A stretch of 64,000 nt of DNA from Candidatus Amesbacteria bacterium RIFOXYB1_FULL_44_23 (GTDB taxonomy: Bacteria; Patescibacteriota; Microgenomatia; CAZETR01; Amesbacteraceae). This document shows, piece by piece, positions 3,422 through 33,196 of the stretch; positions within the stretch are counted from its first letter, which is position 1; every line of letters starts with the position of its first letter. Under the pieces are notes generated by a model that saw only the letters and a list, made by a program, of their open reading frames with translations, ran no database searches and had not been told where the DNA came from. The DNA lies in contig MEXR01000032.1 in NCBI GenBank assembly GCA_001773775.1, positions 7,266 to 71,265 on the forward strand, written 5' to 3'. The position numbers and the translations under genes are program-made.

Positions 3422-3430
3422 GGGCTTAGA

Positions 3431-16814: not shown

Positions 16815-16897
16815 GTCCTTTTATATTATTATCCGATCAAACTTTAAATTCAATGTGGTAAGCATGGACAGAGCATTCGAAGCTATGATGTTCTGAT

Positions 16898-16927
16898 TTG
16901 ACAAAACGTTGAGCCGGATGGTACCAT
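16898..16927 (+). promoter_or_regulatory. Sigma70-type promoter of the T-box leader
   Basis: TTGACA (16898-16903), 18-nt spacer, TG-n-TACCAT (16922-16927). Confidence 0.65.
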
Positions 16928-16934
16928 TCGTCTA

Positions 16935-17171
16935 CAATTTGCAAAAGCGTTTAAGTTTGGTTTCCCGCCAAACAAGCTGCTTGCGATGAGCAAGACGGAA
17001 GTCAACCGTAAGAATGAGACAAAGCGTGTCGGTAACGGAGCGCTACAAGCGTAAGCTTTTAGTTCCACCGAAAGGTGGTTTTTTTGTAGCTTACGAAAGC
17101 AGGGTGGTACCACGAGAAACCTCGTCCTTGCTCTTCAAGAAATATCTTGGAGGGTGAAGGCGAGGTTTTTT
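16935..17171 (+). promoter_or_regulatory. T-box riboswitch (probably Pro-specific)
   Basis: AGGGTGGTACCACG antiterminator (17101-17114) pairs with CGTCCT; stem III CGTAAGC...GCTTACG; alternative terminator ends in a T-run; upstream of proS. Confidence 0.85.
17118..17171 (+). terminator. T-box terminator/sequestrator hairpin
   Basis: AACCTCGTCCTT...AAGGCGAGGTT followed by T-tract abutting ATG 17172. Confidence 0.8.
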
Positions 17172-18566
17172 ATGTTTACAAATGCAAAACTTATACAAAA
17201 GAACTGGCGAAATACCCTGAAACAAGGGCAGGTGTCTTTGGTGGTCGTGAGGGAGGGAGAGGTTTTGTATGCCAATAAGGTGTCCGGAGTTTCTGGTCTG
17301 GTTGATTGTTTTAAGCAGGATTTATTGTCAGGAAGTGAGGTCTATGACACCAAGATTGGGTTGGCGGCGGCGAAACTTTTAGTGTGGGGGAAGGCAAGAT
17401 CAGTGTTTGCACTTACGGCGAGTCAGTCCGCTGTAAACTTTTGCAAAGCAAATAATCTGGCAGTTGAGAGTGTGAAGCAGGTGGACCGGTTGTACTTTTC
17501 TAATGATTTAGGTGGATGCCTATTTGAGAAGACAGCCTTCGGAGCGCAGAGAGCGGAAGATTTAATCAGGGGTTTGGAAGGACTAGGGGAGGTAAGAGTT
17601 GAGAGGTGTACAAAAGACGGTGTCTTTCCCCTGAATTATTATTCCACGTCAAATAGAAAAACATGGGTCAATCTGCAAGGGAAATGGACTGCGGTCAGGC
17701 ATCCTGAAATGGATAAGGCGATCAGAGTTGGGAGAAAGAAAGCCCGGACTGTGGCGACCTGCGAAGTTAAAAGAGGAGATATGGTAGTGGTCGGAGACGG
17801 GTTGGGGGTGTATGAGGAGAAAGTCGAGTTGAAAAAGGGCCAGGATTTTGGCTTTATGAGTAGTGAGGTTAGTGCAGAGAGGCCCAAAGAAGCACTGATT
17901 GGCAGGGTGGCTGAAATAATGCGGGAAAGCAGGCGAGAGGGTAAGCGAACGCTTTTAGTAGGGGGTCCGGCGATAGTTCATACCGGTTCGGGAAAATATT
18001 TGTCCGGACTAATCCGGTCCGGATGGATAGACGTACTGTTTGGAGGAAACGCCATAGCTGCTCATGACTTAGAAGAAAATTATCTGGGGACGTCTTTGGG
18101 GACAGAGGTGACTTCCGGAAACAGGATTGAGGGGGGTCATCATCATCACCTGAGGACTATCAATACGATTCGGTTTTACGGGGGAATTAAAAATGCCGTG
18201 GTCGCCAAAGTGATTAAATCCGGAATTTTTTATGAGTGTGTCCGAAGCGGAACGAAGTTTGTTTTAGCCGGGTCCATCAGGGACGACGGTCCGTTAACAG
18301 ACGTGATCACAGATTCGGTAAGGGCACAAATGGAGATGAGAAAAGAAACCAGAAATGGTTTCGGCGTAGCCCTGATGGTGGCTACGACTTTACACTCAGT
18401 TGCTACGGGCAATTTGTTGTCTTTTGATACCACCAAAATCATCGTTGATGACAATCTGGCTTCAGTGACTAAGTTAGCTGATCGGGGGACTAATGCCTTA
18501 GGAATTGTGACCGATTGCGCTTATTTTTTGAGCCAATTATGTAATAAGCTGGAGGTGGAGATATGA
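17172..18566 (+). CDS. DUF1893 + TIGR00300 (LOR/SDH-region, ornithine cyclodeaminase-like) fusion protein
   Basis: N-terminal DTKIGLAAAKLL...GGCLFE (DUF1893-like); YYSTSN, FMSSEVSAERP, GGPAIVHTG, GGNAIAAHDLE, LAGSIRDDGPL, LHSVATGN, TKLADRG. Confidence 0.85.
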   Translation: MFTNAKLIQKNWRNTLKQGQVSLVVVREGEVLYANKVSGVSGLVDCFKQDLLSGSEVYDTKIGLAAAKLLVWGKARSVFALTASQSAVNFCKANNLAVESVKQVDRLYFSNDLGGCLFEKTAFGAQRAEDLIRGLEGLGEVRVERCTKDGVFPLNYYSTSNRKTWVNLQGKWTAVRHPEMDKAIRVGRKKARTVATCEVKRGDMVVVGDGLGVYEEKVELKKGQDFGFMSSEVSAERPKEALIGRVAEIMRESRREGKRTLLVGGPAIVHTGSGKYLSGLIRSGWIDVLFGGNAIAAHDLEENYLGTSLGTEVTSGNRIEGGHHHHLRTINTIRFYGGIKNAVVAKVIKSGIFYECVRSGTKFVLAGSIRDDGPLTDVITDSVRAQMEMRKETRNGFGVALMVATTLHSVATGNLLSFDTTKIIVDDNLASVTKLADRGTNALGIVTDCAYFLSQLCNKLEVEI

Positions 18567-19993
18567 AAGATTTTATTAAAAAGAATTTACCCAAAAAGAG
18601 TCAAAGCTTGTCTGAATGGTATAACCGGGTGGTAATGCTGGCTGAACTGGCTGATTATGGACCCGCCAGAGGGACTATGATTTTTCGGCCTTACGGATAT
18701 GCGATTTGGGAAACGGTGCAGAAATACATGGATGAGAAAATCAAGGCCAGCGGGGTGGAGAATGCATATTTTCCGCTTTTTATCCCCGAGTCTTTATTGG
18801 CTAAAGAGAAAGATCATATCAAGGGGTTTGCTCCTGAGTTGGCGGTAGTAACGATCGGAGGCGGAGAAGAATTGAAGGAGAGGCTGGTAGTAAGACCGAC
18901 CAGTGAAACGATAATGTACCAGGCGTATGCCAATTGGATAAAGTCATGGCGGGACTTGCCGGTTTTGGTTAACCAATGGAATAACGTAGTCCGCTGGGAA
19001 AAACGTACTTATCTGTTTCTTCGGACTCTGGAATTTCTGTGGCAGGAAGGACATTGTGCTCATGCGACCTGGGAAGAGTCGTGGGAGAGGGTGCTGTGGG
19101 GAATTAAATTGTACGAGCAAACATATCGTGAAATATTTGCATTGCCAACGGTGGTGGGAAGGAAATCGGAATCTGAGAAGTTTGCCGGGGGTGTGGCGAC
19201 TTTGACTTGTGAAGTTTTGATGCCGGAAGGCAAGGCTTTGCAGGGTTGCACATCGCATGATTTGGGGCAAAATTTTTCCAGAGCACAGAACATCAAGTTT
19301 CAGGATAAAGACAGAAGTGCCAAATATGTCTGGCAAAACAGCTGGGGTTTTACCACCAGATCTATAGGAGGAATGCTAATGGCACATGGGGATGATGCGG
19401 GAGCGGTACTGCCCCCAAGAGCTGCTCCTGTTCAAGTAGTAATCATATTGGCAAAAAGCGAAACCGACGTAACGGAGTATGCCAAAAAAGTTGAGTTGGA
19501 GTTGGTTCAACTGGGTTTAAGAGTGAAATTGGACGATCGGGAAGAGGAGTCAATGGGGTACAAAATCAATAAATGGGAACTGAGAGGGGTGCCCTTACGG
19601 ATTGAAATTGGCATTAAAGAGGTGAGGAGTCAGAATTTGACGATTGTTAGAAGGGACAACCAGACCAGACTTCTGATTTCAAATAACAACTTGGGAACAG
19701 TCAAGACGTTGCTGGACACTATTCAGTCTGATATGTTGGCTAGGCAGGAAAGATTTCTAGCTGAGAATACTTTTGAGGCTATTACGTATAATAGATTTAG
19801 CGAAATAATGAAAACAACGAAAGGTTTTATTAAGGCGTTTTGGTGCGAGCGAGCGGAATGCGAAATGACAATTAAAGAAGAGACCAAAGCTTCGACTAGA
19901 TGCCTTCCTTTGGATGCGCCGAAAGAAAACGGAGTCTGTGTTAAATGCGGTGAACCGGCAATTCACCGCTGGTTATTTGCTCAGGCCTATTGA
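18563..19993 (+). CDS. proS: Proline--tRNA ligase (archaeal/eukaryote-like type)
   Basis: RPYGYAIWE, VRPTSET, FLRTLEFLWQEGH, C-terminal Zn domain ending FAQAY. Confidence 0.97.
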   Translation: MKDFIKKNLPKKSQSLSEWYNRVVMLAELADYGPARGTMIFRPYGYAIWETVQKYMDEKIKASGVENAYFPLFIPESLLAKEKDHIKGFAPELAVVTIGGGEELKERLVVRPTSETIMYQAYANWIKSWRDLPVLVNQWNNVVRWEKRTYLFLRTLEFLWQEGHCAHATWEESWERVLWGIKLYEQTYREIFALPTVVGRKSESEKFAGGVATLTCEVLMPEGKALQGCTSHDLGQNFSRAQNIKFQDKDRSAKYVWQNSWGFTTRSIGGMLMAHGDDAGAVLPPRAAPVQVVIILAKSETDVTEYAKKVELELVQLGLRVKLDDREEESMGYKINKWELRGVPLRIEIGIKEVRSQNLTIVRRDNQTRLLISNNNLGTVKTLLDTIQSDMLARQERFLAENTFEAITYNRFSEIMKTTKGFIKAFWCERAECEMTIKEETKASTRCLPLDAPKENGVCVKCGEPAIHRWLFAQAY

Positions 19994-20007
19994 GGAGGTG
20001 ATGATGC

Positions 20008-20343
20008 ATGGCAACTATTGATGATTTTAACGCACTAGATATCAGAGTGGGAAAAATTGTGGAAGTTGAGGATTTCCCCGAGGCAAGGAAACCTTCATAT
20101 AAGCTAACAATTGATTTTGGACCAGAAATCGGGATAAAGCACTCAAGCGCTCAATTGGTTAAGCACTACACAAAAGAAGAGCTAAAAAACAAGCTGGTGT
20201 TGGGTGTGGTCAATTTTCCCCCGCGCCAAATCGGTCCTTTTATATCCGAATCACTTACTCTGGGAGTTCCGGATGAAAACCATGATTGCATTCTAATTGC
20301 ACCCGATAAAGCCACGGCAGTGGTAGGAGGAAAACTATATTAG
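20008..20343 (+). CDS. csaA: CsaA/Trbp111-like tRNA-binding OB-fold protein
   Basis: LDIRVGKI, EARKPSYKLTIDFG, SSAQL, NFPPRQIG. Confidence 0.9.
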   Translation: MATIDDFNALDIRVGKIVEVEDFPEARKPSYKLTIDFGPEIGIKHSSAQLVKHYTKEELKNKLVLGVVNFPPRQIGPFISESLTLGVPDENHDCILIAPDKATAVVGGKLY

Positions 20344-20408
20344 GATTGATTCCAGAATTCGAATTTCGATCTAGCGTCGATACTATTAGACGAGTTCTGA
20401 TCAGGGTT

Positions 20409-20446
20409 TGGGTGGGTATGGGCGGAAATCCGTTCGAACCTGTTTA
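20409..20446 (+). repeat. Array repeat R1
   Basis: tgggtgggtatgggcggaaatccGTTCGAACCtgttta. Confidence 0.55.
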
Positions 20447-20555
20447 GCCATTAAGTTATTATTGGGTTATGTTCAAAATCGTGGCCTGCCCGGTTGATAA
20501 AAGAGAAGTGGGGGAGTTGGCTCGTGAGATCGGGGGCTTTTATATTTGAAAATGT

Positions 20556-20786
20556 ATGACTAAACGACAGGTTTGGCAAACGATAGCCTTGGATTTGAAG
20601 AGAGCGGCTAATTATTTGCATGCTAAGAGATACCGGCAGGCAGAATTTTATTTAGATGAGGCCAAACAACTGTACAAGACCGCTTCTTTTGACGACAAGA
20701 TGCGCTCTGTTGAGAAGTTTATAAGCTTTAGCGGTGATCCGGAAGGGATTTTGTTGGGGAGCAGTATTATTTCAGGGAGACTGTAA
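20556..20786 (+). CDS. Hypothetical protein (cassette 1)
   Basis: Helical 76-aa ORF, IALDLKRAANY. Confidence 0.65.
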   Translation: MTKRQVWQTIALDLKRAANYLHAKRYRQAEFYLDEAKQLYKTASFDDKMRSVEKFISFSGDPEGILLGSSIISGRL

Positions 20787-20790
20787 AACC

Positions 20791-20824
20791 CGGCTGGCCT
20801 GATGGAAAGTATTCTAGCCTGTTC
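20791..20824 (+). repeat. Array repeat R2 (degenerate)
   Basis: cggctggcctGATGGAAagtattctagcctgttc. Confidence 0.45.
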
Positions 20825-20875
20825 CTCTCAAATTTAGTATTTACTATCTTTGTAAAATATGTTAGAAGTTCTTAA

Positions 20876-21109
20876 ATGTCAGATGAACGTTTAGGTCCGG
20901 CAGAAACAAGGGTAGATATTAGAAGATATATCGAAGAACACCCCGAAGGTGTAAATATTTCTCCAACTGTTCTTGCGGCCATTGCTAGGCAGAGAAAATG
21001 GTCGGATCTTGTAGATCCTGTAAGAAGAATAACTTCAGGTCTAAAAACTTTAGGAGTTGTACGTATAGAGGGTTTAATTGCTAAACCCGTTCCTCGAAGG
21101 AAGCATTAA
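20876..21109 (+). CDS. Hypothetical protein, possibly winged helix (cassette 2)
   Basis: IRRYIEEHPEG...VRRITSGLKTLGVV. Confidence 0.55.
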   Translation: MSDERLGPAETRVDIRRYIEEHPEGVNISPTVLAAIARQRKWSDLVDPVRRITSGLKTLGVVRIEGLIAKPVPRRKH

Positions 21110-21115
21110 AATTTG

Positions 21116-21150
21116 TTCAGAGGGCTTTGATGGAAGACGTCTGCGGTAAA
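21116..21150 (+). repeat. Array repeat R3 (3' part diverged)
   Basis: ttcagagggctttGATGGAAGACgtctgcgg. Confidence 0.5.
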
Positions 21151-21264
21151 CCACTACCCCCTTTGATACAGAACGAAGCTGTTACGCACAAAATTTAACA
21201 TAACAGACTAGATAGAATGGCCTCACGCGGTTATAATCTCACTTAGTAAAACAACTAAATAGCC

Positions 21265-22074
21265 ATGAATATGCCTGATTTCGATGAGTCTCGAGTTATA
21301 TTTGAAAAGAGATGGCAGGAGTATGTTAATAATTTTCTTGCCTCACCATCTAATTCCAAGGTATTTAAAGCGTACGAGTCCGGGGGAATCTTATCTCCTG
21401 AAAATAGGAATGTGGTAGAGCATCAAATCATGGCAAGATTCGTAGTTGAGGTGTTGTGTGATTTGTGTGGTGTAGACGGAAATGAAAAGGAAGACGGCTT
21501 AACAGCAGCAAGTCTGCACGATTTCAATGTGCTCGAAGAAAAATTCGGCAGAAGAAACGGGAAATATAAACATTACCGGGATATAGAATCGCTGAAAGAA
21601 AAAGATCGTAATACACTCAGAGAGTTGGGGTTTTCAGAGGAAGCAATTAGTCTGACGGATGCTAACATAACGCACGAAGAGGGGGGTCCAAAATCACTAA
21701 CCGCGATGTTTTTGTTCTTGGCTGACGCCTGCATCTCCGGAACAAAAATCGTAGATATCAGAAAAAGATTTGCGGATACAAGGATGGGGTGGCGCAGCGA
21801 CAAGAAGCGAATAGATGATAAAACAGCGCAGGAGAATGCATATTATTATGATCATTTTTGGAAAGGGGCTCCGGGGCACGGAGACAGGCCGCATGATGAA
21901 GTACAACTGGAAACTGCCGCAAGAATATGTAGTGATTTGGTAGGAATATTAAGAGAGAAGCAGGCAGATACTAAAAATCCCAAATACGCACGCATATTTG
22001 GCCCAAATGGAGATTCAAACCTACTTCCAGAGTATATACGGGATAAAGTGAACGAAAAAGTTGCAAACGTCTAA
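21265..22074 (+). CDS. HD-superfamily phosphohydrolase (cassette 3)
   Basis: VVEH...AASLHDF...FLADA. Confidence 0.7.
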   Translation: MNMPDFDESRVIFEKRWQEYVNNFLASPSNSKVFKAYESGGILSPENRNVVEHQIMARFVVEVLCDLCGVDGNEKEDGLTAASLHDFNVLEEKFGRRNGKYKHYRDIESLKEKDRNTLRELGFSEEAISLTDANITHEEGGPKSLTAMFLFLADACISGTKIVDIRKRFADTRMGWRSDKKRIDDKTAQENAYYYDHFWKGAPGHGDRPHDEVQLETAARICSDLVGILREKQADTKNPKYARIFGPNGDSNLLPEYIRDKVNEKVANV

Positions 22075-22114
22075 GGGGAGATTTGTAATATTCATTGGGA
22101 TTAGTTCTCGATAT

Positions 22115-22150
22115 TTGCAGGGACTGGCGGACTGTCTGGGAACCTGGTTT
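22115..22150 (+). repeat. Array repeat R4
   Basis: ttGCAGGGACtGGcGGActgtctggGAACCTggttt; 13/15 nt identical to the tRNA-Trp 3'-end strand at 28769-28783. Confidence 0.7.
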
Positions 22151-22167
22151 TGGGTATAATCAGTCTT

Positions 22168-23220
22168 ATGGATGAAATTAAAGTAGCTTCACTAGAAGAT
22201 TTGGGTTGGGGTGGGTATTTTAAAAATGAACACTCTATAGCCAGAGTGGTTGCCGAATATAGAGAAGCGTATAGGGTCAGAAGCATAAATGGAGAATTTT
22301 TAGCAAAAATTACCGGTAAACAACTGTTTTTGGCGACCAAACGGGAAGATTATCCGGCGGTAGGTGATTTCGTGGTGATAGATGAAATGTCCGGGAAAAA
22401 AGCAGTAATTCGTGAGGTGTTGCCCAGAAAGACCTGGCTTAAGAAGAAGTACAGCGATAAAGAAGAAAACCAGCTGATAGCAACTAACATAGACGCGGCA
22501 TTTATAGTGGGATCTCCGGATAAGGATTACAGTTTGAATCGTTTTGAGAGATATTTAGTTATTGCTAAGGACGGGGGAATTAAGCCGGTCTTAATTATTA
22601 ACAAAACCGACTTACTTTCTGAGGCGGAATTGCGCGCCAAAATATCGGAGATTAAGGAAAGATTTGGGGAGGTTGATATTCTTCTGACTAGTACAGTGAC
22701 TGAGCTGGGATTAGGAGAGCTGGAAAAGTATATTCTAAGGGGTAAGACATATTGCTTTTTGGGTTCTTCCGGAGTAGGCAAATCGACACTTATAAATAAA
22801 TTACTGGGTAAAAATGAAATTAAAACGATGGAAATTAGTGAAACATCCGGCAGGGGAAAACACACCACCTCAACCAGGGAGATGTATTTTTTAAAAAACG
22901 GGGGAATAGTCATTGATAACCCAGGAACCAGGGAGGTGGGTACGGGAGATTCAGTTAGGGGTATGGAAAATGTGTTTGATGAAATAAGATTACTGTCTCA
23001 AAACTGCAGATTTTCTGATTGCACGCATACAAACGAACCTAATTGTGCGATTATCACAGCCGTGGAGTCTGGAAGTTTGGATAAAGATAAATATGCGAAT
23101 TTTCTAAAGTTACGAAAAGAATCGGAATTTTATAAAATGAGTGAGCTGGATAGAAGAGCTAAAGATCGGAAGTTTGGAAAATTTGTTAAGAAGGCAAAAA
23201 ATGAGCTTGAGATGTATTGA
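22168..23220 (+). CDS. rsgA: Ribosome small subunit-dependent GTPase A (cassette 4)
   Basis: PAVGDFV, NKTD, GSSGVGKSTL, GKHTT, DNPG, CRFSDCTHTNEPNC. Confidence 0.95.
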   Translation: MDEIKVASLEDLGWGGYFKNEHSIARVVAEYREAYRVRSINGEFLAKITGKQLFLATKREDYPAVGDFVVIDEMSGKKAVIREVLPRKTWLKKKYSDKEENQLIATNIDAAFIVGSPDKDYSLNRFERYLVIAKDGGIKPVLIINKTDLLSEAELRAKISEIKERFGEVDILLTSTVTELGLGELEKYILRGKTYCFLGSSGVGKSTLINKLLGKNEIKTMEISETSGRGKHTTSTREMYFLKNGGIVIDNPGTREVGTGDSVRGMENVFDEIRLLSQNCRFSDCTHTNEPNCAIITAVESGSLDKDKYANFLKLRKESEFYKMSELDRRAKDRKFGKFVKKAKNELEMY

Positions 23221-23240
23221 ATTTTTTACTTAAAGCTATT

Positions 23241-23300
23241 TTGCAGGTTTGGACGCCATAGCCCTGAGCGGAGTCGAAGGGGAAGATACTCGAATTTTGT
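23241..23300 (+). repeat. Array repeat R5 interrupted by a REP-like element
   Basis: ttgcagg...[gccctgagcggagtcgaaggg]GAAGAtactCGAAttt. Confidence 0.5.
23261..23281. repeat. REP-like short hairpin GCCCTGAGCGGAGTCGAAGGG
   Basis: Resembles, from memory, the widespread CCCTTCGACTxCGCTCAGGG extragenic repeat. Confidence 0.5.
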
Positions 23301-23936
23301 ATGGGCAACTTGCCTCTTTTGGAACTAAGCAATAAAATCCGGCAAATGGCTCGTGAACGCGGGTTTGAATGTCTGTTTAGCAGTAATCCAAAGGTTTATT
23401 TTATCGAGCAAGTTATTGAACAGCTCGATGTACTCGAGGCTCTCTTTTTGTGGGAACAGGGATTGGAACATATCTCTGGCTTAGTGACTGGATGTTTCGA
23501 TATACTACACCCTGATCAAGTTGAGTTTTTACAAGCAGGAAAAAGAAAGGTTCAGACGTTAATTGTGGGGGTTGATAGGGATGAAACGGTGAGACTAAAA
23601 GGTCCAGGAAGACCAATTTTTAATCTTAGACAAAGGTGCGAAATGCTGGCGGCTCTTGATTGTGTAGACTTAGTTTTTCCAATTCCCTTTGCTTTGGGAA
23701 GGTATGAGGAGTCACCCGAAAACGCTACCTTGTTCGAAGCCTTAACTGATAGATTATTCAACTCTACTTTGCCGAGGCAAGGTATACATTGTCTAATAAC
23801 AAATGAAGCTGCAGATCCGTTTTGGCGGGAAAAGAAAGAGCGGGCTGAAAAACTGGGAGTTGGCTATATTGGTTTGAATATGGAGAGATCTACTAGCTCG
23901 AGTCAGGTGGCAACTAAAATTCAAACAGGGGGTTAG
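23301..23936 (+). CDS. Cytidylyltransferase-family (RfaE domain II-like) protein with altered HxGH motif (cassette 5)
   Basis: GCFDILHPDQ, LIVGVDRD, KGPGRPI, R.EMLAALDCVD, C-terminal STSS. Confidence 0.8.
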   Translation: MGNLPLLELSNKIRQMARERGFECLFSSNPKVYFIEQVIEQLDVLEALFLWEQGLEHISGLVTGCFDILHPDQVEFLQAGKRKVQTLIVGVDRDETVRLKGPGRPIFNLRQRCEMLAALDCVDLVFPIPFALGRYEESPENATLFEALTDRLFNSTLPRQGIHCLITNEAADPFWREKKERAEKLGVGYIGLNMERSTSSSQVATKIQTGG

Positions 23937-23949
23937 GCATTCTTTATGG

Positions 23950-23983
23950 TTGCAGCCCTGGATGGAAGACATCCGAACCTATT
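23950..23983 (+). repeat. Array repeat R6
   Basis: ttgcaGCCCTGGATGGAAGACATcCGAACctatt. Confidence 0.75.
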
Positions 23984-24008
23984 ACTCTCAAAACCGATAA
24001 TAGAGTAT

Positions 24009-24698
24009 CTATTTTAATATTTCTCTTACAGTAGCCTGGACAAGGATTTCCATTGTATCGATAATTTCAGAGTTCTGTATATGGGGGGTGATTAATTGTA
24101 AATCTGTGCACGCAAGCAGAATTGTTTTTGGACCCTGGTCTAGTAGTCCTTTGGTTATTTTTAACAATTTTTCCCTGTCTTCACCATCCTGTCTACTGTG
24201 AACCAGGTGGTTGATGATTTCGCCCATTTGGTTCTGATCCTCCTCAACTGGACTTTTTACTTTTATACCATTTGAGGTAAGAACCTCTTCATATAACCTT
24301 TTTCTGATGGTGGAGGAGGTGGCTAAAAGACCAACTTCGGTGACTTTGTTACTATTGAGGCGACTTAATGTTTCATCCACTATGCTCAAAACAGGGACTT
24401 TCACTGATTCTCGGATTTGGTTAATAAAAATATGAACTGAGTTACATGGGATGACGATAAAATCTGCTCCGCCCTTCTCCAGTCTTTTAGCGGCATCTAA
24501 CAGATAAGGCAGATATTTTTCTTCTCCCTGAGAATTCTTGATGAATTCCTCTTCTATCTGATAGGGGAGGGGGACGTTCCAAATCAGCATTGGCGGACGG
24601 TTTATCCGATCCTTTTCAAAACAGGAGAAAATTACCTCCAGATAAAATTTGGAAGTTGTTTCCGGACCCAGTCCGCCAATTATGCCTGCAGTTTTCAT
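24009..24698 (-). CDS. Aspartate/glutamate racemase-family protein (cassette 6, inverted)
   Basis: GIIGGLGPETT, IPCNSVH, LACTDL (two catalytic Cys). Confidence 0.92.
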   Translation of the reverse strand: MKTAGIIGGLGPETTSKFYLEVIFSCFEKDRINRPPMLIWNVPLPYQIEEEFIKNSQGEEKYLPYLLDAAKRLEKGGADFIVIPCNSVHIFINQIRESVKVPVLSIVDETLSRLNSNKVTEVGLLATSSTIRKRLYEEVLTSNGIKVKSPVEEDQNQMGEIINHLVHSRQDGEDREKLLKITKGLLDQGPKTILLACTDLQLITPHIQNSEIIDTMEILVQATVREILK

Positions 24699-24780
24699 TC
24701 TCGGACTTAATTATATAGCAGGTTCGATTCCAATTAGCCGTTGATATAGTTTGATATGTTTTTTAGCTTCAAATTGAGTT

Positions 24781-24813
24781 AGCTGCCCTGGATGGAAGAC
24801 ATTCGAACTTTTT
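24781..24813 (+). repeat. Array repeat R7
   Basis: agctGCCCTGGATGGAAGACATtCGAACttttt; 18 nt identical to R6. Confidence 0.75.
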
Positions 24814-24864
24814 ACGTTCAGTTATCTTGTTAGTTGGAATAAACAGACTTATACTTTTTCCGTA

Positions 24865-25230
24865 ATGATAATAAATCGTAATAATTCGCGTTTTTGGGAG
24901 GCTTTGGAAGATATATTGAATAATTCTTCAGTAGTAATAGACCGGCCAGGGGGCAGTGCTCATCCAAGATTTCCGAAGTTTATTTATCCTCTGGATTATG
25001 GTTTCCTCGAAGGGACTTCTTCTATGGATGGTGGGGGAATTGACGTGTGGAAGGGGACCGGTACTAACGGTTTTGATGCGATACTTTGTGTTGTTGACAC
25101 AATCAAAAAAGATTCAGAAATAAAAATATTACTTAACTGCACCCCAGAAGAAAAAAGAAAGGTGCTGGAGTGTCAGAATACAAAAAAGATGAAGGCTATG
25201 ATGATAAATCGCGACGGGACACTTTCGTGA
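24865..25230 (+). CDS. Short inorganic pyrophosphatase-like protein (cassette 7)
   Basis: IDRPGGSAHP...YPLDYGFLEGTSSMDGGGIDVW. Confidence 0.75.
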   Translation: MIINRNNSRFWEALEDILNNSSVVIDRPGGSAHPRFPKFIYPLDYGFLEGTSSMDGGGIDVWKGTGTNGFDAILCVVDTIKKDSEIKILLNCTPEEKRKVLECQNTKKMKAMMINRDGTLS

Positions 25231-25284
25231 AAAGCTAGACGTCGTCTGGTGAAGCTAAACGAAAGATTGTTACAAAGCTCTGTT

Positions 25285-25322
25285 GTGGCAGGACTAGTGG
25301 ACTATGTTGGAACCTGGTTTAG
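25285..25322 (+). repeat. Array repeat R8
   Basis: gtggcaggactagtggactatgtTGGAACCTGGTTTAG. Confidence 0.7.
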
Positions 25323-25449
25323 GGAAAATAGGTTTGGTTTTGCTGTGTAAATGGTGGGGGGCGGGTAAACCCGTTAGCTTTATTGTCGTAAAATTACTGA
25401 GGTATTGGAAAGACAGCCTTTTTGGGTTAATATCGCCCCAGGAACGAGT

Positions 25450-25986
25450 ATGAGTGACGATATTAAATGGGTGGTAGATAATGCAGTGAAGTTATCTATT
25501 TTGGCGATAGCCTTATCAGTGGCATATTACTTTGTATTTTTTTTGCCAAATAAACAGAACCAGGAATTGGAATTAAAAAGGCAACAGTATCAGGACCAGA
25601 TAGTTGCCCAGCAAAAGGAAGACGAACGGGAACAACAAAAGATTTTAGATGTACAGAAACAGGCTGCAGAGAATAGGTCATTATTGGATAAGTGTTTGGA
25701 AAACGCTGAAGATTCGTATCACCTGAATTGGAGAAATAGTTGTAGGACAAGAGGATTAATGCCAAGTGGGTGTGAGGAGGAGTCAATTAACCTGGAGTTT
25801 TCTGATTATCAGAAACAACATAATTTGCCAACTTCTACCATTGAGGGATGGGATGATTATTGGAAAGTTTACAGTGCAAAAAAGGATAAATGTACCTGCA
25901 GCTTGCCTACATATAATGCAGACGACATAACTGAGACTGAAAAAAACTCAAAGGACGAATGCTTTAAAAGATATCCACAGAATTAG
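25450..25986 (+). CDS. Membrane-anchored Cys-containing hypothetical protein (cassette 8)
   Basis: TM (SVAYYFVFFLP), coiled coil, six Cys. Confidence 0.75.
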   Translation: MSDDIKWVVDNAVKLSILAIALSVAYYFVFFLPNKQNQELELKRQQYQDQIVAQQKEDEREQQKILDVQKQAAENRSLLDKCLENAEDSYHLNWRNSCRTRGLMPSGCEEESINLEFSDYQKQHNLPTSTIEGWDDYWKVYSAKKDKCTCSLPTYNADDITETEKNSKDECFKRYPQN

Positions 25987-25996
25987 GGGTATATTA

Positions 25997-26027
25997 CGGT
26001 TGGTGTTGTCGCTGGAACCTGGTTTAG
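25997..26027 (+). repeat. Array repeat R9
   Basis: cggttggtgttgtcgcTGGAACCTGGTTTAG; 15 nt identical to R8. Confidence 0.6.
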
Positions 26028-26121
26028 CCTGAATTGGTGGAGAGAAAGGGGGATTAGCCTTTGCTGGGTGGTTTAGGAGGAGTGGATGTTTGTACTGCGC
26101 AGGACTAAGATTACCCAGGAC

Positions 26122-26436
26122 ATGGACGAGGAAAATAATGCTCTTTCTTATTTATTTTGGGGTGGGGTAATAGTCTTCATTATTTGGGCATTCATTTTTA
26201 ACAATAAGCCCGATACTGAATACATTAGGGAAGAATTCGACAATGGTAAGGCTATCGAAATGGAGGTTGACGACTCGATCACTAGAGACAATTGGGAGTG
26301 TACAGGTGATTGCTCTGGTCATGATGCTGGATATGAATGGGCAGAAGAGAAGGGGATAACTGATCCAAGTGACTGTGGTGGCAAATCAGAGTCTTTTATA
26401 GAGGGGTGTGAGGCTTATGCGAACGAAAATTATTAA
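26122..26436 (+). CDS. Membrane-anchored small Cys-rich protein (cassette 9)
   Basis: TM plus CTGDCSGHDAGYEWAEEKGI...CGGKSESFIEGC. Confidence 0.75.
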   Translation: MDEENNALSYLFWGGVIVFIIWAFIFNNKPDTEYIREEFDNGKAIEMEVDDSITRDNWECTGDCSGHDAGYEWAEEKGITDPSDCGGKSESFIEGCEAYANENY

Positions 26437-26448
26437 GGTAGGTGGGCA

Positions 26449-26483
26449 TTGATGGGGTGGGGGACTACGTGGGAACCTTTTTT
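26449..26483 (+). repeat. Array repeat R10
   Basis: ttgatggggtggGGGACtacgtggGAACCtttttt. Confidence 0.6.
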
Positions 26484-26537
26484 GTTTGTATTGATAGAAG
26501 GTATGGGGAAGTAAACCTTGTCAGGAATTTTTGTGCC

Positions 26538-27032
26538 CTAGGGTCCTTTTTTTAGGTTAGATCGGAAATTTATCCAACTTATAAAAATTTTTACTCTGTC
26601 AATGAGGCTCAGATTTGAAAGTAAGGTGTCTGCTCTGTCTCCAATGTGTTCAATGTAGTCCTTAAAATAATTTATTTCAGATTGCTTTGGTTCAAAGATT
26701 GATTCCCCGCCGGTGAAGCTGGGAATTTTTTTCCAATCCTGTACAAATGCTCTAATCATGGTTGAGAGTGATGGGTTGTACATTTTGACATTTCTAGCGA
26801 TGTGTATCAGGCGTTGTGATATGTTTTCAGAGAATTTGAGCGATGGTAAACATTGTTCTTCGAATTCGGCCAACCGATCTTGAATTTTATTTCTAAGCTT
26901 GCGTTTTTCGGTCTCATCTTCACCCAAGGATTTAAGCTTATTAGACAAGTTGTAGTTGTAAAATATTCCGATCAAACTGATTACTGCGGGTACTGAGGCT
27001 AAGACCAAAGCAAATTTTTCTGAAAGTGTCAT
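26538..27032 (-). CDS. Hypothetical protein with N-terminal TM
   Basis: ORF 9 nt downstream of the 27042-27968 gene. Confidence 0.7.
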   Translation of the reverse strand: MTLSEKFALVLASVPAVISLIGIFYNYNLSNKLKSLGEDETEKRKLRNKIQDRLAEFEEQCLPSLKFSENISQRLIHIARNVKMYNPSLSTMIRAFVQDWKKIPSFTGGESIFEPKQSEINYFKDYIEHIGDRADTLLSNLSLIDRVKIFISWINFRSNLKKGP

Positions 27033-27041
27033 ATATTACGT

Positions 27042-27968
27042 TTATGCAAAAAGTTTTGTTATTTCCGAATCCCATGATTCAGTATGGATAACTCTTTTGA
27101 TCGATAAATTGCCTTGTATTATCTGTGCTTTGGTGAGTTTGGAAAGGGTTTCCCAGTTGTTCCCAAATACGTAAGTGGCGTTGCCATACTTGATGCACTC
27201 GAGTAGGTAAAAGCCTCTTTGCCCAAAGCCAAAAACTACATACCCCTGAAAACCGCCAAAACCAATGGCGTGTAGGGTGGGTTTGTAACTTCGAATTTTG
27301 TCTACCCTATGTGTAGCCCATGGCTGGTTACCTTTGGGTAGCTGATTTATGACCGTTTTTAATCTATCGGACACCCTTTCCCAGGGGTATTCACCTGGTG
27401 GGAGTATTTCCCAGTTGAGTCTTACTTCTTTAGGTGAAAAGTAACCTTCGAGATTATTGGAGACAATGTCGAATTCACCAAAAATTTCAAGCATCAAGTT
27501 TGCGAGGTGGAGAACTTCCTTTTCGTTTTCTGGTTTGCTTTGAACTACCCGGCTGGAAAACATGAGTTCGCCTGTTGGAGTTTGAAGTATTTCGAGTTCT
27601 TCTGAGGGTGGTAGCACTTTTTCTCTGGGATATCTTTGGTAAGGAACATCAACAAATTTGCTCATTGGAACTGTGTTGTAACGGCCGTCCCATTGTTTCC
27701 AATGCCACTTGACTGTGCGGTAAGCAGTTTCCATTGGTAGATCAGTTCTTTTTATTTCCTTGCCCAGGGCATTGAATCTGGTAGTTGGGCCAAATGTGGG
27801 TGGGGGGAGTATTTTGTGACCTACTGAAATGGGTAAGTTGAAACCAATTCTAATGGCTATCTGGTCAGTGGTGGAGTTGGTGGTGGCAATGAGTCGAAAT
27901 TGTTCACCTGGTTTTAAGAATCCAAAATAAGACTTGTAATCGTGGATTGACGTCTTTTTAATCTTCAT
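27042..27968 (-). CDS. Conserved-looking hypothetical protein
   Basis: LNWEILPPGEYPW, GFQGYVVFGF, GNATYVF...W.TLSKLTK, RVIH...W. Confidence 0.8.
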   Translation of the reverse strand: MKIKKTSIHDYKSYFGFLKPGEQFRLIATTNSTTDQIAIRIGFNLPISVGHKILPPPTFGPTTRFNALGKEIKRTDLPMETAYRTVKWHWKQWDGRYNTVPMSKFVDVPYQRYPREKVLPPSEELEILQTPTGELMFSSRVVQSKPENEKEVLHLANLMLEIFGEFDIVSNNLEGYFSPKEVRLNWEILPPGEYPWERVSDRLKTVINQLPKGNQPWATHRVDKIRSYKPTLHAIGFGGFQGYVVFGFGQRGFYLLECIKYGNATYVFGNNWETLSKLTKAQIIQGNLSIKRVIHTESWDSEITKLFA

Positions 27969-28051
27969 GAGGCTGATTGTACCACAATTTCTGGTAAATG
28001 CAAGATTGTTCTTGTATAGTGTGTTATGATTTAATACGATTGAAAGGCATT

Positions 28052-28669
28052 ATGGTAGGATTACATCCAAGGCAAATAAAAATTCTGGAGCTGCTGAAAG
28101 GTGGTGATGGCCAGGGTTTAAGCGTGAGGGAGATTCAGAACTTACTTGGGATTTCCTCACCAAGTGTTGTTCAGCACCACATTGTTCAATTGGAGCGGAA
28201 GGGTTATCTTCGCAGAAATCCTAATAACCCTCAGGATTTTCAGGTTTTGGCTGATAGCCCTGATAGGGAAGTGACCTATTTGAACGTTTATGGGTTGGCT
28301 CAGTGTGGTCCAGGAGGGAGAATTCTTGATGGCAATCCCATTGAGAGAGTTCCCATCAGCTCAAAATTGCTTGGATTCTCCTCCTCGGAAGCATTTATGG
28401 TTAAGGCGAAAGGAGATTCGATGGTGCCACTTATTGCTGAGAACGACTATGTGGTTGCTAGGGTAACGAATGACAAACCACCTGGGGGTGAAATTGTTGT
28501 TGCTGTCAATGATGGTAATGCGACAATAAAAAAAATAAATTATTCAGGAGGTGAGGTTGTCTTGTCGTCTATTAACAGGGATTATTCGCCAATGATTGTA
28601 TCGCCAGATTTCAGGGTGGAGGGTGTAGTTAGAGGTGTATATAAATATGCCAATCCCACGGTAAAATAA
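28052..28669 (+). CDS. LexA/CI-like repressor (HTH + S24 peptidase)
   Basis: LSVREIQ..LGISSPSVVQHH..QLERKGYL; GDSM (Ser); ATIKK (Lys); Cys-Gly at the cleavage position. Confidence 0.88.
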   Translation: MVGLHPRQIKILELLKGGDGQGLSVREIQNLLGISSPSVVQHHIVQLERKGYLRRNPNNPQDFQVLADSPDREVTYLNVYGLAQCGPGGRILDGNPIERVPISSKLLGFSSSEAFMVKAKGDSMVPLIAENDYVVARVTNDKPPGGEIVVAVNDGNATIKKINYSGGEVVLSSINRDYSPMIVSPDFRVEGVVRGVYKYANPTVK

Positions 28670-28769
28670 TTTATGGCGAAAATATCATGGTCGGAGGCAT
28701 TGGCTGATTATTTGGGGGGATGAGACGTCGAGTTACCAATCCTTGGTGGGGAAATTTGGGGTATCGAAG

Positions 28770-28840
28770 CAGGGACGGGAGGAATCGAACCTCCACTAGA
28801 GCTTTTGGAGAGCCCAGGTCTACCATTAACCTACGTCCCT
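28770..28840 (-). tRNA. tRNA-Trp (CCA)
   Basis: AGGGACGTAGGTTAATGGTAGACCTGGGCTCTCCAAAAGCTC...GGTTCGATTCCTCCCGTCCCTG cloverleaf. Confidence 0.95.
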
Positions 28841-28881
28841 AGACAGTTTAATTTTACAGGAGTTGCTGAAGAAAGAGAAGC

Positions 28882-29055
28882 TTACTTGAGTTTGGCGTTT
28901 TCCTTGTGGGTGGTGTGCTTTCGGCACTTCTTACAGAATTTATCCAACTGGATTTTTTCGGGGACGTTAACCTTGTTACGTTCTCCGATATAGTTTTGGG
29001 TTTTGCAGACGCTGCAAACAAAACCAAAGATCTGACGGGCACCTTTTTTGGCCAT
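28882..29055 (-). CDS. rpmG: 50S ribosomal protein L33 (Zn-binding C+ type; below the ORF-track cutoff)
   Basis: MAKKGARQIFGFVCSVCKTQNY...KFCKKCRKHTTHKE. Confidence 0.95.
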   Translation of the reverse strand: MAKKGARQIFGFVCSVCKTQNYIGERNKVNVPEKIQLDKFCKKCRKHTTHKENAKLK

Positions 29056-29090
29056 AGTTTTGTGATTTTACTCGAAACTGCCTCCCATGT

Positions 29091-29501
29091 CTATTGGGTG
29101 ACTGGCGGAACTGGGGTAGCAGCCGCTGGTTGGGTTGGCATGTTCCAGGCCGGAGAAACTGGAGCCGGAGCACTTGAGAGCGGTGCTTGTGGCATTGTTG
29201 CCGGAGCCATGGGAACTACGGGTTCTGGGGCTACTGGAGCTATGACAACCGGTTCCGGAGCCATTACCGGTGGTGGGGTCACGACAGGGGTCGGACTGAA
29301 AACCGGAGTGGGGGGAACGCTGACTGTGGCTGCTGCCTGGTCAATACTGGCCTGAGCCTGACTGACGTCTGGGGCGACTGAGGCTGCTGTGGTTGCGGTA
29401 GAGTTTTCTACGCCACAACGTTCGCATACCCAAACAGTGCGGCCATCGTTGGTGGTAACAGCTTGACAGTTGACGCAGTTAATTGGTTGTTGAGGATCCA
29501 A
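29091..29501 (-). CDS. Zn-ribbon + Pro/Ala-rich disordered protein
   Basis: CVNC...WVCERCG, TTG start with GGGGGTG SD. Confidence 0.7.
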   Translation of the reverse strand: MDPQQPINCVNCQAVTTNDGRTVWVCERCGVENSTATTAASVAPDVSQAQASIDQAAATVSVPPTPVFSPTPVVTPPPVMAPEPVVIAPVAPEPVVPMAPATMPQAPLSSAPAPVSPAWNMPTQPAAATPVPPVTQ

Positions 29502-29604
29502 AAAAATTCACCCCCTGATAAATTGCGCGAAAATAAATTGCGCAATAGCCTGTTAACTATATGTGATAATTGACACCCCGGTCAAGACACAACACAATGG
29601 ATAG

Positions 29605-30816
29605 GTGGACTACGCAAGTAAGTTGGGGGGAATGCAAAGCTTTTCATTGTCGGGAATGTCTTCCCCGGTTGAGATTGTGGACCAGGTGATCGGTCAGGCG
29701 GTAAAAGATTCGGCTTCGGATATTTTGTTTGAGCCTCAGGAGAAAGATGTGGCGGTCAGACTGAGAGTAGATGGAGTGCTGCAGGTGGTGGGAGTAATGC
29801 CGCACGGAGCTTACGATCAGGTGCTGTCAAGAATCAAGGTGTTGGGAAATATGGACGTAACTGAAAGCAGGAAACCTCAGGAATCAAAGATAAGATTTGA
29901 AGTGGACGGGCATCCGTATGTGCTAAGGGCTGCTATTGTATCTACCAATTTCGGACAAATGGTGGCTTTAAGAGTTCTTGACGCCCCTAAATTCACTGAA
30001 TTTACGGATTTGGGAATGTCGGCTGACCTGTCAGATAAAATCAAAAAGAACATTTCCGGGAGATACGGATTGTTTTTGGTCTGCGGACCGACGGGATCCG
30101 GAAAAACTACAACGGTGCATGCCTGTTTGAAGCATTTAAATGATGGGGAAGTAAATATCATGACCTTGGAAGACCCGATTGAATACATCATGGGCGGAAT
30201 TAATCAGATGCAGATTGGGGAAGAGGTGGGATTGGACTTTGTTTCCGGACTGAAACTTATTTTGCGACTGAATCCGGACATTGTTTTTGTGGGAGAAATC
30301 CGGGATGCGGAAACGGCCCGGATTGCGGTTCAGGCATCACTGACCGGGCATTTGGTTATTTCAACAATTCACGCCCGAAACAGTGTGGGAGCGTTGTACA
30401 GATTGATAGATTTGGGAGTGGACCGATACATGATCAATTACGCCCTGCGGGCAATTGTGTCACAAAGGCTGATGCGGCGGGTGTGTGACCACTGTAAGGA
30501 AGAGTATGCACCGGAACAAACTGAGGTGAAGGCATATGTCACCGAAAAAGGAGCACCGCCTTCAAGGCTTGTGCATGGAAGGGGATGTGATTTGTGTAAT
30601 CAGACCAAGTATCGGGGCAGGGTGGGAATTTACGAGCTGTTAGAAATGGACGATGGTGTAAGGCAAATGGTGACTTCAGTGGCATCAGAATCAGAATTCA
30701 GGGCTGGTTTAAACAGTAAAGGTTGGGTGGGAATGAACCACGAGGGGATTAGACTGGTGGATGAAGGAGTAACTTCACTGCGGGAGTTTGTGAGAACAAT
30801 GTACGATGCGAGGTAA
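29605..30816 (+). CDS. PilB/GspE-family type IV pilus assembly ATPase
   Basis: ASDILFEP, RLRVDG, GPTGSGKTTT, TLEDPIEY, GEIRD, TGHLV.STIH, tetracysteine motif. Confidence 0.93.
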   Translation: MDYASKLGGMQSFSLSGMSSPVEIVDQVIGQAVKDSASDILFEPQEKDVAVRLRVDGVLQVVGVMPHGAYDQVLSRIKVLGNMDVTESRKPQESKIRFEVDGHPYVLRAAIVSTNFGQMVALRVLDAPKFTEFTDLGMSADLSDKIKKNISGRYGLFLVCGPTGSGKTTTVHACLKHLNDGEVNIMTLEDPIEYIMGGINQMQIGEEVGLDFVSGLKLILRLNPDIVFVGEIRDAETARIAVQASLTGHLVISTIHARNSVGALYRLIDLGVDRYMINYALRAIVSQRLMRRVCDHCKEEYAPEQTEVKAYVTEKGAPPSRLVHGRGCDLCNQTKYRGRVGIYELLEMDDGVRQMVTSVASESEFRAGLNSKGWVGMNHEGIRLVDEGVTSLREFVRTMYDAR

Positions 30817-30827
30817 TAGAAGTGAGC

Positions 30828-30902
30828 TGGAGCCTGGAGTGAGAATCGGACTCACGACTTCATTCTTACCAAGAATGCGTTCTGCCACTGAACTACCCAG
30901 GC
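30828..30902 (-). tRNA. tRNA-Thr (GGT)
   Basis: GCCTGGGTAGTTCAGTGGCAGAAC-GCATTCTTGGTAAGAATG-...CCAGGCTCCA. Confidence 0.95.
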
Positions 30903-30958
30903 GACGTAATTATTATATCTGACTAAATGCTGATGTGAAGAGTTAAAGACCCTTTAGA

Positions 30959-31312: not shown

Positions 31313-31332
31313 GATAAATTTATATCACAATT

Positions 31333-32100: not shown

Positions 32101-32184
32101 GGTGCCGGGAGCAGGATTCGAACCTACGTAGCCTAAGGCGCCTGATTTACAGTCAGGTGTGATTGACCGCTCCACCATCCCGGC
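32100..32184 (-). tRNA. tRNA-Tyr (GTA)
   Basis: GCCGGGATGGTGGAGCGGTCAATCACACCTGACTGTAAATCAGG, long variable arm, GGTTCGAATCC...GGCACCA. Confidence 0.95.
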
Positions 32185-32274
32185 GATAATTATGATTTTA
32201 ACAAAATTCAGACGCTTCGTGTTGCTGACGGTCAAATCTTTAAGTACTTGAACTCTTGTTACTGACGAAATATA

Positions 32275-33054: not shown

Positions 33055-33103
33055 ACTTTAATTATTCCGAAATTTACCCGAATGTCAAGAGAAATAGATT
33101 ATG

Positions 33104-33174: not shown

Positions 33175-33196
33175 TTAACTAAGATGATTTTACAAT

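What the first reader, a model, noticed from the sequence alone, without database searches (positions are those of the whole stretch)
20409..26483. Integron-like gene-cassette array punctuated by tRNA-3'-end-mimicking direct repeats
Seen: each of ten consecutive intergenic spacers from csaA to 26.5 kb holds one same-strand copy of a degenerate ~35-nt motif, roughly TTGCnGnnCTGGnnGAnnnnnTnnGAACCTnnTTT (R1-R10). Most copies lie 5-65 nt after a stop codon. R6/R7 share 18 identical nt and R8/R9 share 15. The nine intervening units carry one intact, unrelated gene each: HD hydrolase, RsgA, cytidylyltransferase, racemase, pyrophosphatase, surface proteins and orphans. Most have their own -10 box. 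The motif is not a palindromic attC and the spacers are gene-sized, so this is neither a classical integron nor a CRISPR. Inference: a site-specific gene-capture platform built by repeated integration at or near the tRNA-Trp 3' end, each event leaving one att scar plus cargo.
Basis: partly seen in the sequence, partly recalled or inferred. Interest (0 to 1): 0.9.

Follow-up and report, generated by a model that had tools for sequence, protein, structure and literature searches.

The report
Severed-recombinase scars stack genes behind tRNA-Trp
Behind a tryptophan tRNA gene of a tiny groundwater bacterium lies a row of ten short DNA units, mostly one gene each, separated by repeats that match the cut-off tail of a serine recombinase gene; they are likely scars of repeated insertions at that tRNA and would let such cells gain and swap single genes.

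Summary
The array is real. All ten spacers outscore all 772 control spacer-strands with models trained only on other genomes; six copies are strong, four decayed. The repeats are not tRNA copies. Each is four bases shared with the tRNA-Trp 3' end plus the severed last ~14 codons of a large serine recombinase (LSR) gene: codon 15 is a stop in 50 of 95 arms, and two uncut LSRs end in these peptides. Integrated relatives run antisense into tRNA ends (31 of 40 loci). Shared units in other genomes change neighbours inside that four-base core. No LSR lies in this window; three lie at other tRNAs, and two more arrays exist (contigs C3, C33). Best reading: accretion at tRNA-Trp of recombinase-less units that likely travel as passengers of LSR elements. 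It works like Dehalococcoides ssrA islands and staphylococcal SCC tandems, but units are gene-sized (median 870 bp). It is not an integron. No circle or activity was shown, and how units first form is unexplained. This scan noted the same system in 17 other findings; my literature searches found no description for CPR bacteria.

The parts
20409..20461 (+). R1, decayed recombinase-tail arm; distal edge of the array
   Evidence: 9.6 bits, above all 772 controls, genome E 1.0
20469..20786 (+). Unit 1 cargo: 26-codon stump plus 76-aa ORF; similar ORFs lie near tRNA-Trp in 3 of 15 family loci
   Evidence: sequence; translations of L079, L085, L091 compared by eye
20790..20841 (+). R2, class II arm, decayed
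   Evidence: 17.1 bits, E 0.003
20876..21109 (+). Unit 2 cargo: 77-aa orphan
21121..21199 (+). R3, class II arm split by about 30 foreign bases
   Evidence: distal half 21174-21197 scores 8.6 bits; proximal half read from the sequence
21265..22074 (+). Unit 3 cargo: 269-aa protein with an HD-like motif, no family hit
22114..22159 (+). R4, class I arm; core AG at 22119-22120; reads LQGLADCLGTWF in the recombinase frame
   Evidence: 23.4 bits, E 5e-5
22150..23220 (+). Unit 4 cargo: RsgA GTPase; a homolog (81% aa over 210 residues) follows a class I arm next to tRNA-Trp in L078
23241..23317 (+). R5, class II arm interrupted by a REP-like word (23261-23281); core AG at 23245-23246
   Evidence: 7.8 bits; a similar insert breaks the arm in L230
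23301..23936 (+). Unit 5 cargo: cytidylyltransferase-like protein
   Evidence: PF01467 E 1e-9
23950..24000 (+). R6, intact class II arm; core AG at 23954-23955; reads LQPWMEDIRTYYSQNR-stop
   Evidence: 48.2 bits; a contig in run X9 leaves the window here into another arm
24009..24698 (-). Unit 6 cargo: Asp/Glu racemase; a homolog (73% aa) fills a site-bounded unit in L192
24780..24823 (+). R7, class II arm; core TG at 24784-24785
   Evidence: 45.6 bits
24865..25230 (+). Unit 7 cargo: pyrophosphatase-like protein; 97% identical DNA in L185 ends at the R8 core and goes on into a different arm
25286..25330 (+). R8, class I arm, one base short after the core AG at 25290-25291
   Evidence: 31.3 bits
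25405..25986 (+). Unit 8 cargo: membrane-anchored orphan
25998..26036 (+). R9, class I arm, only the distal half kept
   Evidence: 26013-26036 scores 9.5 bits
26086..26436 (+). Unit 9 cargo: 116-aa membrane-anchored orphan
26450..26491 (+). R10, class I arm; reads GVGDYVGTFF
   Evidence: 18.2 bits, E 0.002
26538..28669 (.).
   Evidence: age inferred from position
28769..28840 (-). tRNA-Trp(CCA), the target; shared core GC-AG at 28769-28772 (tRNA positions 74-71)

Best explanation
The ten repeats are hybrid junctions made of the last bases of tRNA-Trp and the severed 3' tail of a large serine recombinase (LSR) gene, likely left by repeated LSR-driven insertions at that tRNA, and the recombinase-less units between them likely move as passengers of intact LSR elements. 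Step 1 (shown in sequence): small CPR elements carry an LSR whose attachment site lies inside its own last codons; the uncut gene ends in the arm peptide, and the integrated gene runs antisense into the tRNA while its tail sits at the far end of the element. Step 2 (shown by comparison): exchange happens inside the four bases GC-AG, tRNA positions 74-71, so the tRNA stays whole. Step 3 (inferred): new DNA enters at the tRNA and pushes older units outward, so R1 would be the oldest junction and unit 10 the youngest unit. Step 4 (inferred, about 55%): an element parked at the tRNA can excise using any outer junction, which restores a full-length LSR from that tail and carries the units in between; in the next host it excises at the inner junction and drops them. 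Step 5 (unexplained): how a one-gene unit first loses the recombinase so cleanly. The array has no LSR in cis now and would need an incoming element or one of three LSRs at other tRNAs.
For: Spacing GGA-N8-GAAC in repeats versus GGA-N3-GAAC in tRNA fits the 5-bp zinc-ribbon-domain shift between attP and attB (PMC3783163, passages). 31 of 40 LSR loci end at an antisense tRNA; upstream of them only spacing 8 is strand-biased (19 versus 3). A matrix from 17 foreign sites puts 9 of its top 10 genome hits in the three arrays. Class II arms: stop at codon 15 in 50 of 95 using all three stop codons, aromatic residue at codon 10 in 95 of 95. Uncut LSRs P0007 and P0123 end in class II and C3-type arm peptides; P0123 and the genome's own C3 LSR align up to the split point. 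In L147 an LSR fragment reads in frame into the arm. 9 of 15 family tRNA-Trp loci have 1-3 intergenic sites with other cargo, and L092 has an intact LSR there. In 113 metagenome loci no site is on the opposite strand, and 20 of the 22 with a downstream tRNA have tRNA-Trp. In 10 site pairs with shared left flank and different arm, identity falls from 0.8 at +1 to 0.3, 0.1 and 0.0 at +2 to +4; in 3 mirror pairs it starts at -3. An 11.4-kb contig of run X9 matches 19500-23955 with 3 differences and then enters another arm.
Against: No activity, circle or excised junction was seen. No LSR or remnant lies in the window; the genome's three LSRs are only 22-31% identical to P0007 and none passes E 1e-100. 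No uncut LSR ending in the window's class I peptide was found among the roughly 240 listed proteins; that link rests on similar arms beyond LSRs at tRNA-Trp in L064 and L065. Four of ten copies are not significant alone. 6 of 15 family loci show no intergenic site. Only 17 of 283 alignment right-ends fell in register near a core, so much shuffling in these regions is not site-specific. No pair of arrays with the same two units in opposite order turned up in the list of shared units. Sites are not independent: many come from related genomes and the class II set was picked with a fixed pattern. The read evidence is from assembled contigs of runs that may be the window's source.
Confidence: 0.8

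Rival explanations
1. Graveyard: each unit is the stump of a full LSR element that lost its recombinase by ordinary deletion and never moved again. The junctions have the same origin as in the best explanation, but there is no passenger transport.
For: L147 is such a deletion stump. Decay of integrated elements followed by accretion is the standard three-step model (PMC5704250, passages). R1, R3, R5 and R9 are decayed.
Against: Only 1 of 113 metagenome loci had an LSR remnant; random deletions should leave many. Near-identical units sit beside different neighbours on either side, with the change at the core (L166/L184/L216, L165/L172/L173, L185/window).
Confidence: 0.25
2. True cassette system: single units excise as gene-sized circles and are integrated at tRNA-Trp by an LSR acting in trans, as integron cassettes are by IntI.
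For: A geneless unit of about 137 bp occurs twice in one array, each time between cores (L113). Left flanks carry GA[AG]GC[TAC] at two fixed distances in 29 of 175 sites. Ccr recombinases circularise recombinase-less SCC-like cassettes singly (PMC11470126, passages).
Against: No circle was seen. The junctions have only one strong arm (information content is low left of -7), so this would need site pairs that canonical LSRs do not use (PMC3783163, passages).
Confidence: 0.17
3. The motif is a promoter, operator or terminator element and the region is an ordinary variable island.
For: Copies are intergenic and a LexA-like gene is nearby.
Against: Orientation follows the tRNA, not the genes; the motif is absent from 772 other spacer-strands; it keeps a reading frame and stop codon.
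Confidence: 0.02
4. The repeats are duplicated tRNA 3' ends left by a tyrosine integrase or an integron integrase.
For: They resemble the T-arm and acceptor strand; the genome has two tyrosine recombinases.
Against: Five extra bases split the likeness; neither tyrosine recombinase is near an array or reaches the IntI cut-off (53 bits versus 265); the five copies folded give z-scores of -0.37 to 0.79.
Confidence: 0.02

Closest known systems
Dehalococcoides ssrA-specific genomic islands (DsiB; PMC3146451, passages and sections 10-11 read)
   Same: A ~500-aa serine recombinase gene overlaps the attachment site at its 3' end and runs into the target RNA gene; islands stack in tandem; 15 islands lack the integration module and are proposed to be cis-mobilised by accretion.
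   Different: Target is tmRNA with a 20-bp direct repeat and insertion in the T-loop; a six-gene module with a second recombinase; islands overlap SCC in size. Here: tRNA acceptor end, 4-bp shared core, one LSR, units of median 870 bp, and the severed tail is directly traceable.
Staphylococcal SCC/SCCmec tandem cassettes at rlmH (CcrAB/CcrC; PMC11470126, passages read)
   Same: LSR att sites divide a string of accessory DNA at the 3' end of a core gene; one recombinase-bearing cassette can move recombinase-less neighbours in all combinations.
   Different: Cassettes are 17-68 kb; the target is a protein gene; att sites outside the ccr genes is recalled, not checked; mobility is proven there, not here.
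CIME accretion and cis-mobilisation by ICEs/IMEs (PMC5704250, passages read)
   Same: Elements that lost integration genes but kept attL/attR stack at a tRNA 3' end and can be carried by a neighbour.
   Different: Described as decayed elements in tandems with ICEs/IMEs; here up to ten gene-sized units with almost no recombinase remnants.
SSV-type 'suicidal' integrases of archaea (PMC7253208, passages read)
   Same: attP inside the integrase gene, tRNA 3' targets, gene antiparallel to the tRNA, gene split on integration, hybrid enzymes from mixed halves.
   Different: Tyrosine recombinases with a 51-bp identity block and the catalytic residue in the severed part. Here a serine recombinase loses only about 14 residues and keeps all three Pfam domains.
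Integrons (IntI, attI, attC; defining features recalled)
   Same: One-directional array of single-gene units that grows at one end.
   Different: No IntI, no attC hairpin, mixed gene orientation, different enzyme family.

Membership tests
Large serine recombinase att junction | Cognate enzyme has catalytic, recombinase and zinc-ribbon domains | tested here: met
   P0007, P0123 and the C3 LSR carry PF00239, PF07508, PF13408 (PF13408 below cut-off in P0123)
Large serine recombinase att junction | Binding motif 5 bp further from the centre in P arms than in B arms | tested here: met
   N8 in repeats versus N3 in tRNA; only spacing 8 strand-biased upstream of LSRs, 19 versus 3
Large serine recombinase att junction | Very short shared core instead of a long direct repeat | tested here: met
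   identity changes within four bases; the exact dinucleotide is not resolved
Large serine recombinase att junction | Enzyme binds and recombines these sites | not testable with these tools
   needs an assay
Integron | IntI tyrosine integrase beside the array | tested here: not met
   best TIGR02249 score 53 bits versus cut-off 265, on other contigs
Integron | attC sites forming single-strand hairpins | tested here: not met
   5 of 10 copies folded, z -0.37 to 0.79
Integron | Cassette genes co-oriented with the array | tested here: not met
   left gene + 72, - 63; right gene + 48, - 59
CIME / accretion tandem | Units lack integration genes but keep att junctions at a shared target | tested here: met
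CIME / accretion tandem | Units are carried by an adjacent active element | tested here: inconclusive
   units with changed neighbours and an intact element with outer units (L092); no excised composite seen
Dehalococcoides ssrA-GI | Recombinase gene overlaps the att site at its 3' end | tested here: met
Dehalococcoides ssrA-GI | Target is ssrA, with a ~20-bp direct repeat and a DsiAB module | tested here: not met
   target is tRNA-Trp, 4-bp core; DsiA homologs were not searched
SCC | Integration at rlmH by CcrAB/CcrC | tested here: not met
   anchor is a tRNA; ccr homology itself was not searched
SSV-type suicidal integrase | attP inside the integrase gene, split on integration | tested here: met
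SSV-type suicidal integrase | Archaeal tyrosine recombinase | tested here: not met
   serine recombinase domains
CRISPR array | Near-identical repeats with 25-50-bp spacers | tested here: not met
   units of 328-2318 bp; no Rfam CRISPR match in 19000-34000

The most novel reading that the evidence does not exclude
CPR bacteria run a serine-recombinase counterpart of the integron: every junction stores a spare C-terminal tail for the recombinase, so an element parked at a tRNA can pick any outer junction, rebuild its enzyme from that tail and shuttle single-gene cassettes, alone or as passengers, between the tRNA arrays of different hosts.
Probability: 0.4. Interest if true: 0.85.

Novelty: new variant of a known kind. 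Interest (0 to 1): 0.62.

Why it matters
How ultra-small CPR genomes gain their many orphan and accessory genes is poorly understood. This gives a precise, searchable signature (tail peptide plus four-base core), named enzymes and exact substrates, so the question becomes testable in a plasmid assay. The enzymes aim at the last bases of tRNA genes and leave them intact, which is of interest for integration tools. Splitting off the last 14 residues may also be a built-in direction switch.

Tried and rejected
Iterating a matrix on the genome's own hits drifted into G/T-rich noise and was dropped. A crossover at tRNA positions 67-68, my first guess from symmetry, was rejected by the pair comparisons. 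dif/Xer, attC, CRISPR and promoter readings were rejected. Left flanks as recombinase remnants: not supported (1 of 113 loci; none in the window). Viral contigs hold neither P0007's patterns nor the class II pattern. PADLOC found no defence hit for 8 of 9 window proteins given, only weak HTH hits for the LexA-like one. No RNA holder was listed for the stretch. Joints 24756>20801, 24761>25301, 24816>21254 and 25292>28869 likely come from other organisms sharing units and were not counted. Joint 23955>24785 in run X7 (one contig, depth 4.9 versus 9.3, letters between not known, one inserted base) may be a haplotype without the racemase unit; it is a hint only. The X9 loose-end motif was not found in the genome or in the oriented locus set used for the site analysis. 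The contigs of P0007 and P0123 were not seen, so circle versus tandem is open. Literature: searches returned 0 papers; searches listed none on this system in CPR by title and abstract start. The library lacks most subscription papers, and no supplements were read.
Full report
Setting. The window lies on contig C32 of a 1.11-Mb genome in 62 contigs. Of 23 titled records matching my two repeat patterns, 14 are labelled Amesbacteria, Woesebacteria or Patescibacteria, so I read the organism as a CPR bacterium; this is inference. The region runs from proS and csaA through eleven small genes to a LexA/S24-like gene, tRNA-Trp(CCA) on the minus strand at 28769-28840 and rpmG.

The observation. A matrix from nine of the window's copies recovered R4, R6, R7, R8 and R10 when held out (0-4 better hits in 2.2 million positions), R1, R2 and R5 weakly (110-230) and R9 not at all. 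It also exposed two more same-strand clusters, on C33 (six copies) and C3 (four copies). A fairer test used HMMs from 139 sites of other genomes: all ten spacers scored above all 772 control spacer-strands, six with genome-wide significance. The control left out the three arrays. A tenth unit with three genes lies between R10 and the tRNA.

What the repeat is. On the plus strand the tRNA end reads GC-AG, eight bases, GGA, three bases, GAAC; the repeats have eight bases in place of three. A 5-bp outward shift of the zinc-ribbon-domain motif is what separates attP from attB arms of large serine recombinases (PMC3783163, passages). The genome has three LSRs; each ends at or inside an antisense tRNA 3' end (Gln, Glu and an intron-split Asn), and the C3 one, with a rolling-circle Rep gene, sits between tRNA-Gln and the C3 array. 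Among 40 loci of its relatives, 31 have an antisense tRNA at the gene's end, and upstream only spacing 8 is strand-biased, 19 versus 3, other spacings 4-12 on either strand. Those upstream sites join the local tRNA's last bases to a conserved arm. A matrix from 17 of them ranks array sites in 9 of its top 10 hits in this genome.

The arm is the recombinase's own tail. Two earlier scan notes suggested this; I tested it. In L147 an LSR fragment (45% identical to the L092 enzyme over residues 421-503) reads in frame through the core into the arm and stops. Read in that frame, 95 class II arms have a stop at codon 15 in 50 cases (TGA 19, TAA 16, TAG 15) and F, Y or W at codon 10 in all 95; codon 15 lies outside both the search pattern and the matrix. 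P0007, a full-length LSR, ends in WQPYMESIRTFYAQN; its 37 closest listed relatives diverge at that W-Q, 20 of them into the peptide that antisense tRNA-Trp gives. P0123 ends in WLRVWNDVGTYFVNL, matching the C3 arms, and aligns with the C3 LSR at 56% exactly up to WL. Window R6 reads LQPWMEDIRTYYSQNR-stop and R7 LPWMEDIRTFY; R4, R8 and R10 are of a second class, GL(V)DYVGTWF-like. No uncut enzyme with that second tail was found; similar arms lie beyond LSRs at tRNA-Trp in L064 and L065.

Target and crossover. At tRNA-Trp of 15 family loci, 9 have one to three intergenic sites with different cargo, 6 have none (two of these are under 1.5 kb), and L092 has an intact LSR running into the tRNA with outer units beyond it. 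In 113 metagenome loci holding the class II pattern (some overlap on one contig), no site scoring 16 or more is on the opposite strand, and 20 of 22 with a downstream tRNA have tRNA-Trp. Sixty-five distinct units span 236-3375 bp, median 870. Among 170 distinct sites, 15 pairs share a left flank but not the right neighbour; in the 10 with different arm types identity is 0.8-1.0 at -3 to +1 and 0.3, 0.1, 0.0 at +2 to +4. Three mirror pairs share the right unit and become identical from -3. The crossover therefore lies in GC-AG, tRNA positions 74-71. Several pairs show one unit end next to the tRNA in one genome and next to an arm in another, as stacking predicts. The window's own units take part: the pyrophosphatase-like unit is 97% identical to L185 up to the R8 core, and RsgA and racemase homologs fill site-bounded units in L078 and L192. 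Against over-reading: only 17 of 283 alignment right-ends fell in register near a core, and many sites come from related genomes.

Reads. Only assembled contigs were available, eight runs laid of 15 listed. In X9 an 11,377-bp contig matches 19500-23955 with three differences and then continues for 241 bases into a different class I arm, exactly after the R6 core. In X7 one contig joins 23955 to 24785. Depth over 24510-25177 reaches two to three and a half times the flanks in three of four runs, from divergent copies. These runs may be the window's source, and contigs can cross between organisms at shared DNA, so this supports modularity at the core, not a proven excision.

How it likely works. 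An LSR element integrates at the tRNA end, splitting its gene. Units between junctions have a strong tail arm on one side and a weak, AT-rich flank on the other, with a short motif at two fixed distances in 29 of 175 sites, and almost never a recombinase remnant. The simplest chemistry that gives precise, remnant-free units is excision of a tRNA-parked element at an outer junction, which captures the units in between and gives the enzyme a new tail, followed by integration elsewhere and excision at the inner junction. This step is inferred. Pure decay and free minicircles remain open. How a unit first forms is unexplained. The window holds no LSR, so the array would now be passive.

Comparison. 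The closest described system is the Dehalococcoides ssrA islands, where a serine recombinase gene overlaps its att site and 15 islands lack the module (PMC3146451, sections 10-11). SCC tandems show that one LSR cassette can move recombinase-less neighbours (PMC11470126, passages); CIME accretion is the general frame (PMC5704250, passages); archaeal suicidal integrases share the split gene (PMC7253208, passages). It fails the integron tests. I file it as a new variant of a known kind: gene-sized units, tRNA acceptor-end targets and a traceable severed tail. Searches listed no paper on it in CPR bacteria; supplements were not read and most subscription papers are missing.

Relation to earlier scan notes. 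My LSR reading was written down, before the first look-up. Seventeen earlier findings hold the same words (eight shown), so the system is not new to this scan and those notes are not independent support.

Verdict. Real feature; LSR junction origin about 0.9; passenger transport about 0.55; interest 0.62.

Noticed in passing
G000:C33:2658-5736 (L003): A second array of six co-oriented sites, four with the AG core of the tRNA-Trp type and two with TG (one of the C3/Gln type), but no tRNA on the contig; its anchor would lie beyond the contig start. Cargo includes an Mrr nuclease.
   Followed up: partly
G000:C3:20753-29716 (L004): Intact-looking 5.4-kb element (Rep ORF2/G2P plus LSR) at tRNA-Gln(CTG) with three more junctions beyond it; its arms match the 3' end of the other isoacceptor, tRNA-Gln(TTG), better. 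A good substrate set for an assay.
   Followed up: partly
G000:C60:23128-24720 (L008): LSR running into a tRNA-Asn that carries a 202-nt intron and is missed by default tRNA scans.
   Followed up: no
L113, oriented 775-918 and 3313-3456: A geneless unit of about 137 bp with an N5 arm and an internal palindrome occurs twice in one array, one base apart in sequence, each time between cores.
   Followed up: partly
window:24718-24775: An inverted tRNA-T-loop-like word followed by a conserved ATAGTTTGATA motif forms the right end of the racemase unit; the same end module flanks unrelated cargo in L086, L091, L146, L158 and L174. Function unknown.
   Followed up: partly
window:23261-23281 and L230:1995-2020: The same REP-like word has landed inside a class II arm in two genomes.
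   Followed up: no
window:25290-25300: R8 and the alternative arm seen in run X9 both lack one G right after the core, which would shift the frame of a rebuilt tail.
   Followed up: no
L080, oriented 16857-18019: In this relative the tRNA-Trp and its junction are both flipped relative to rpmG, keeping their orientation to each other.
   Followed up: no
window:24510-25177: Divergent copies of the pyrophosphatase-like unit are abundant in co-occurring organisms (depth up to 53 versus 14.5 in run X2).
   Followed up: partly
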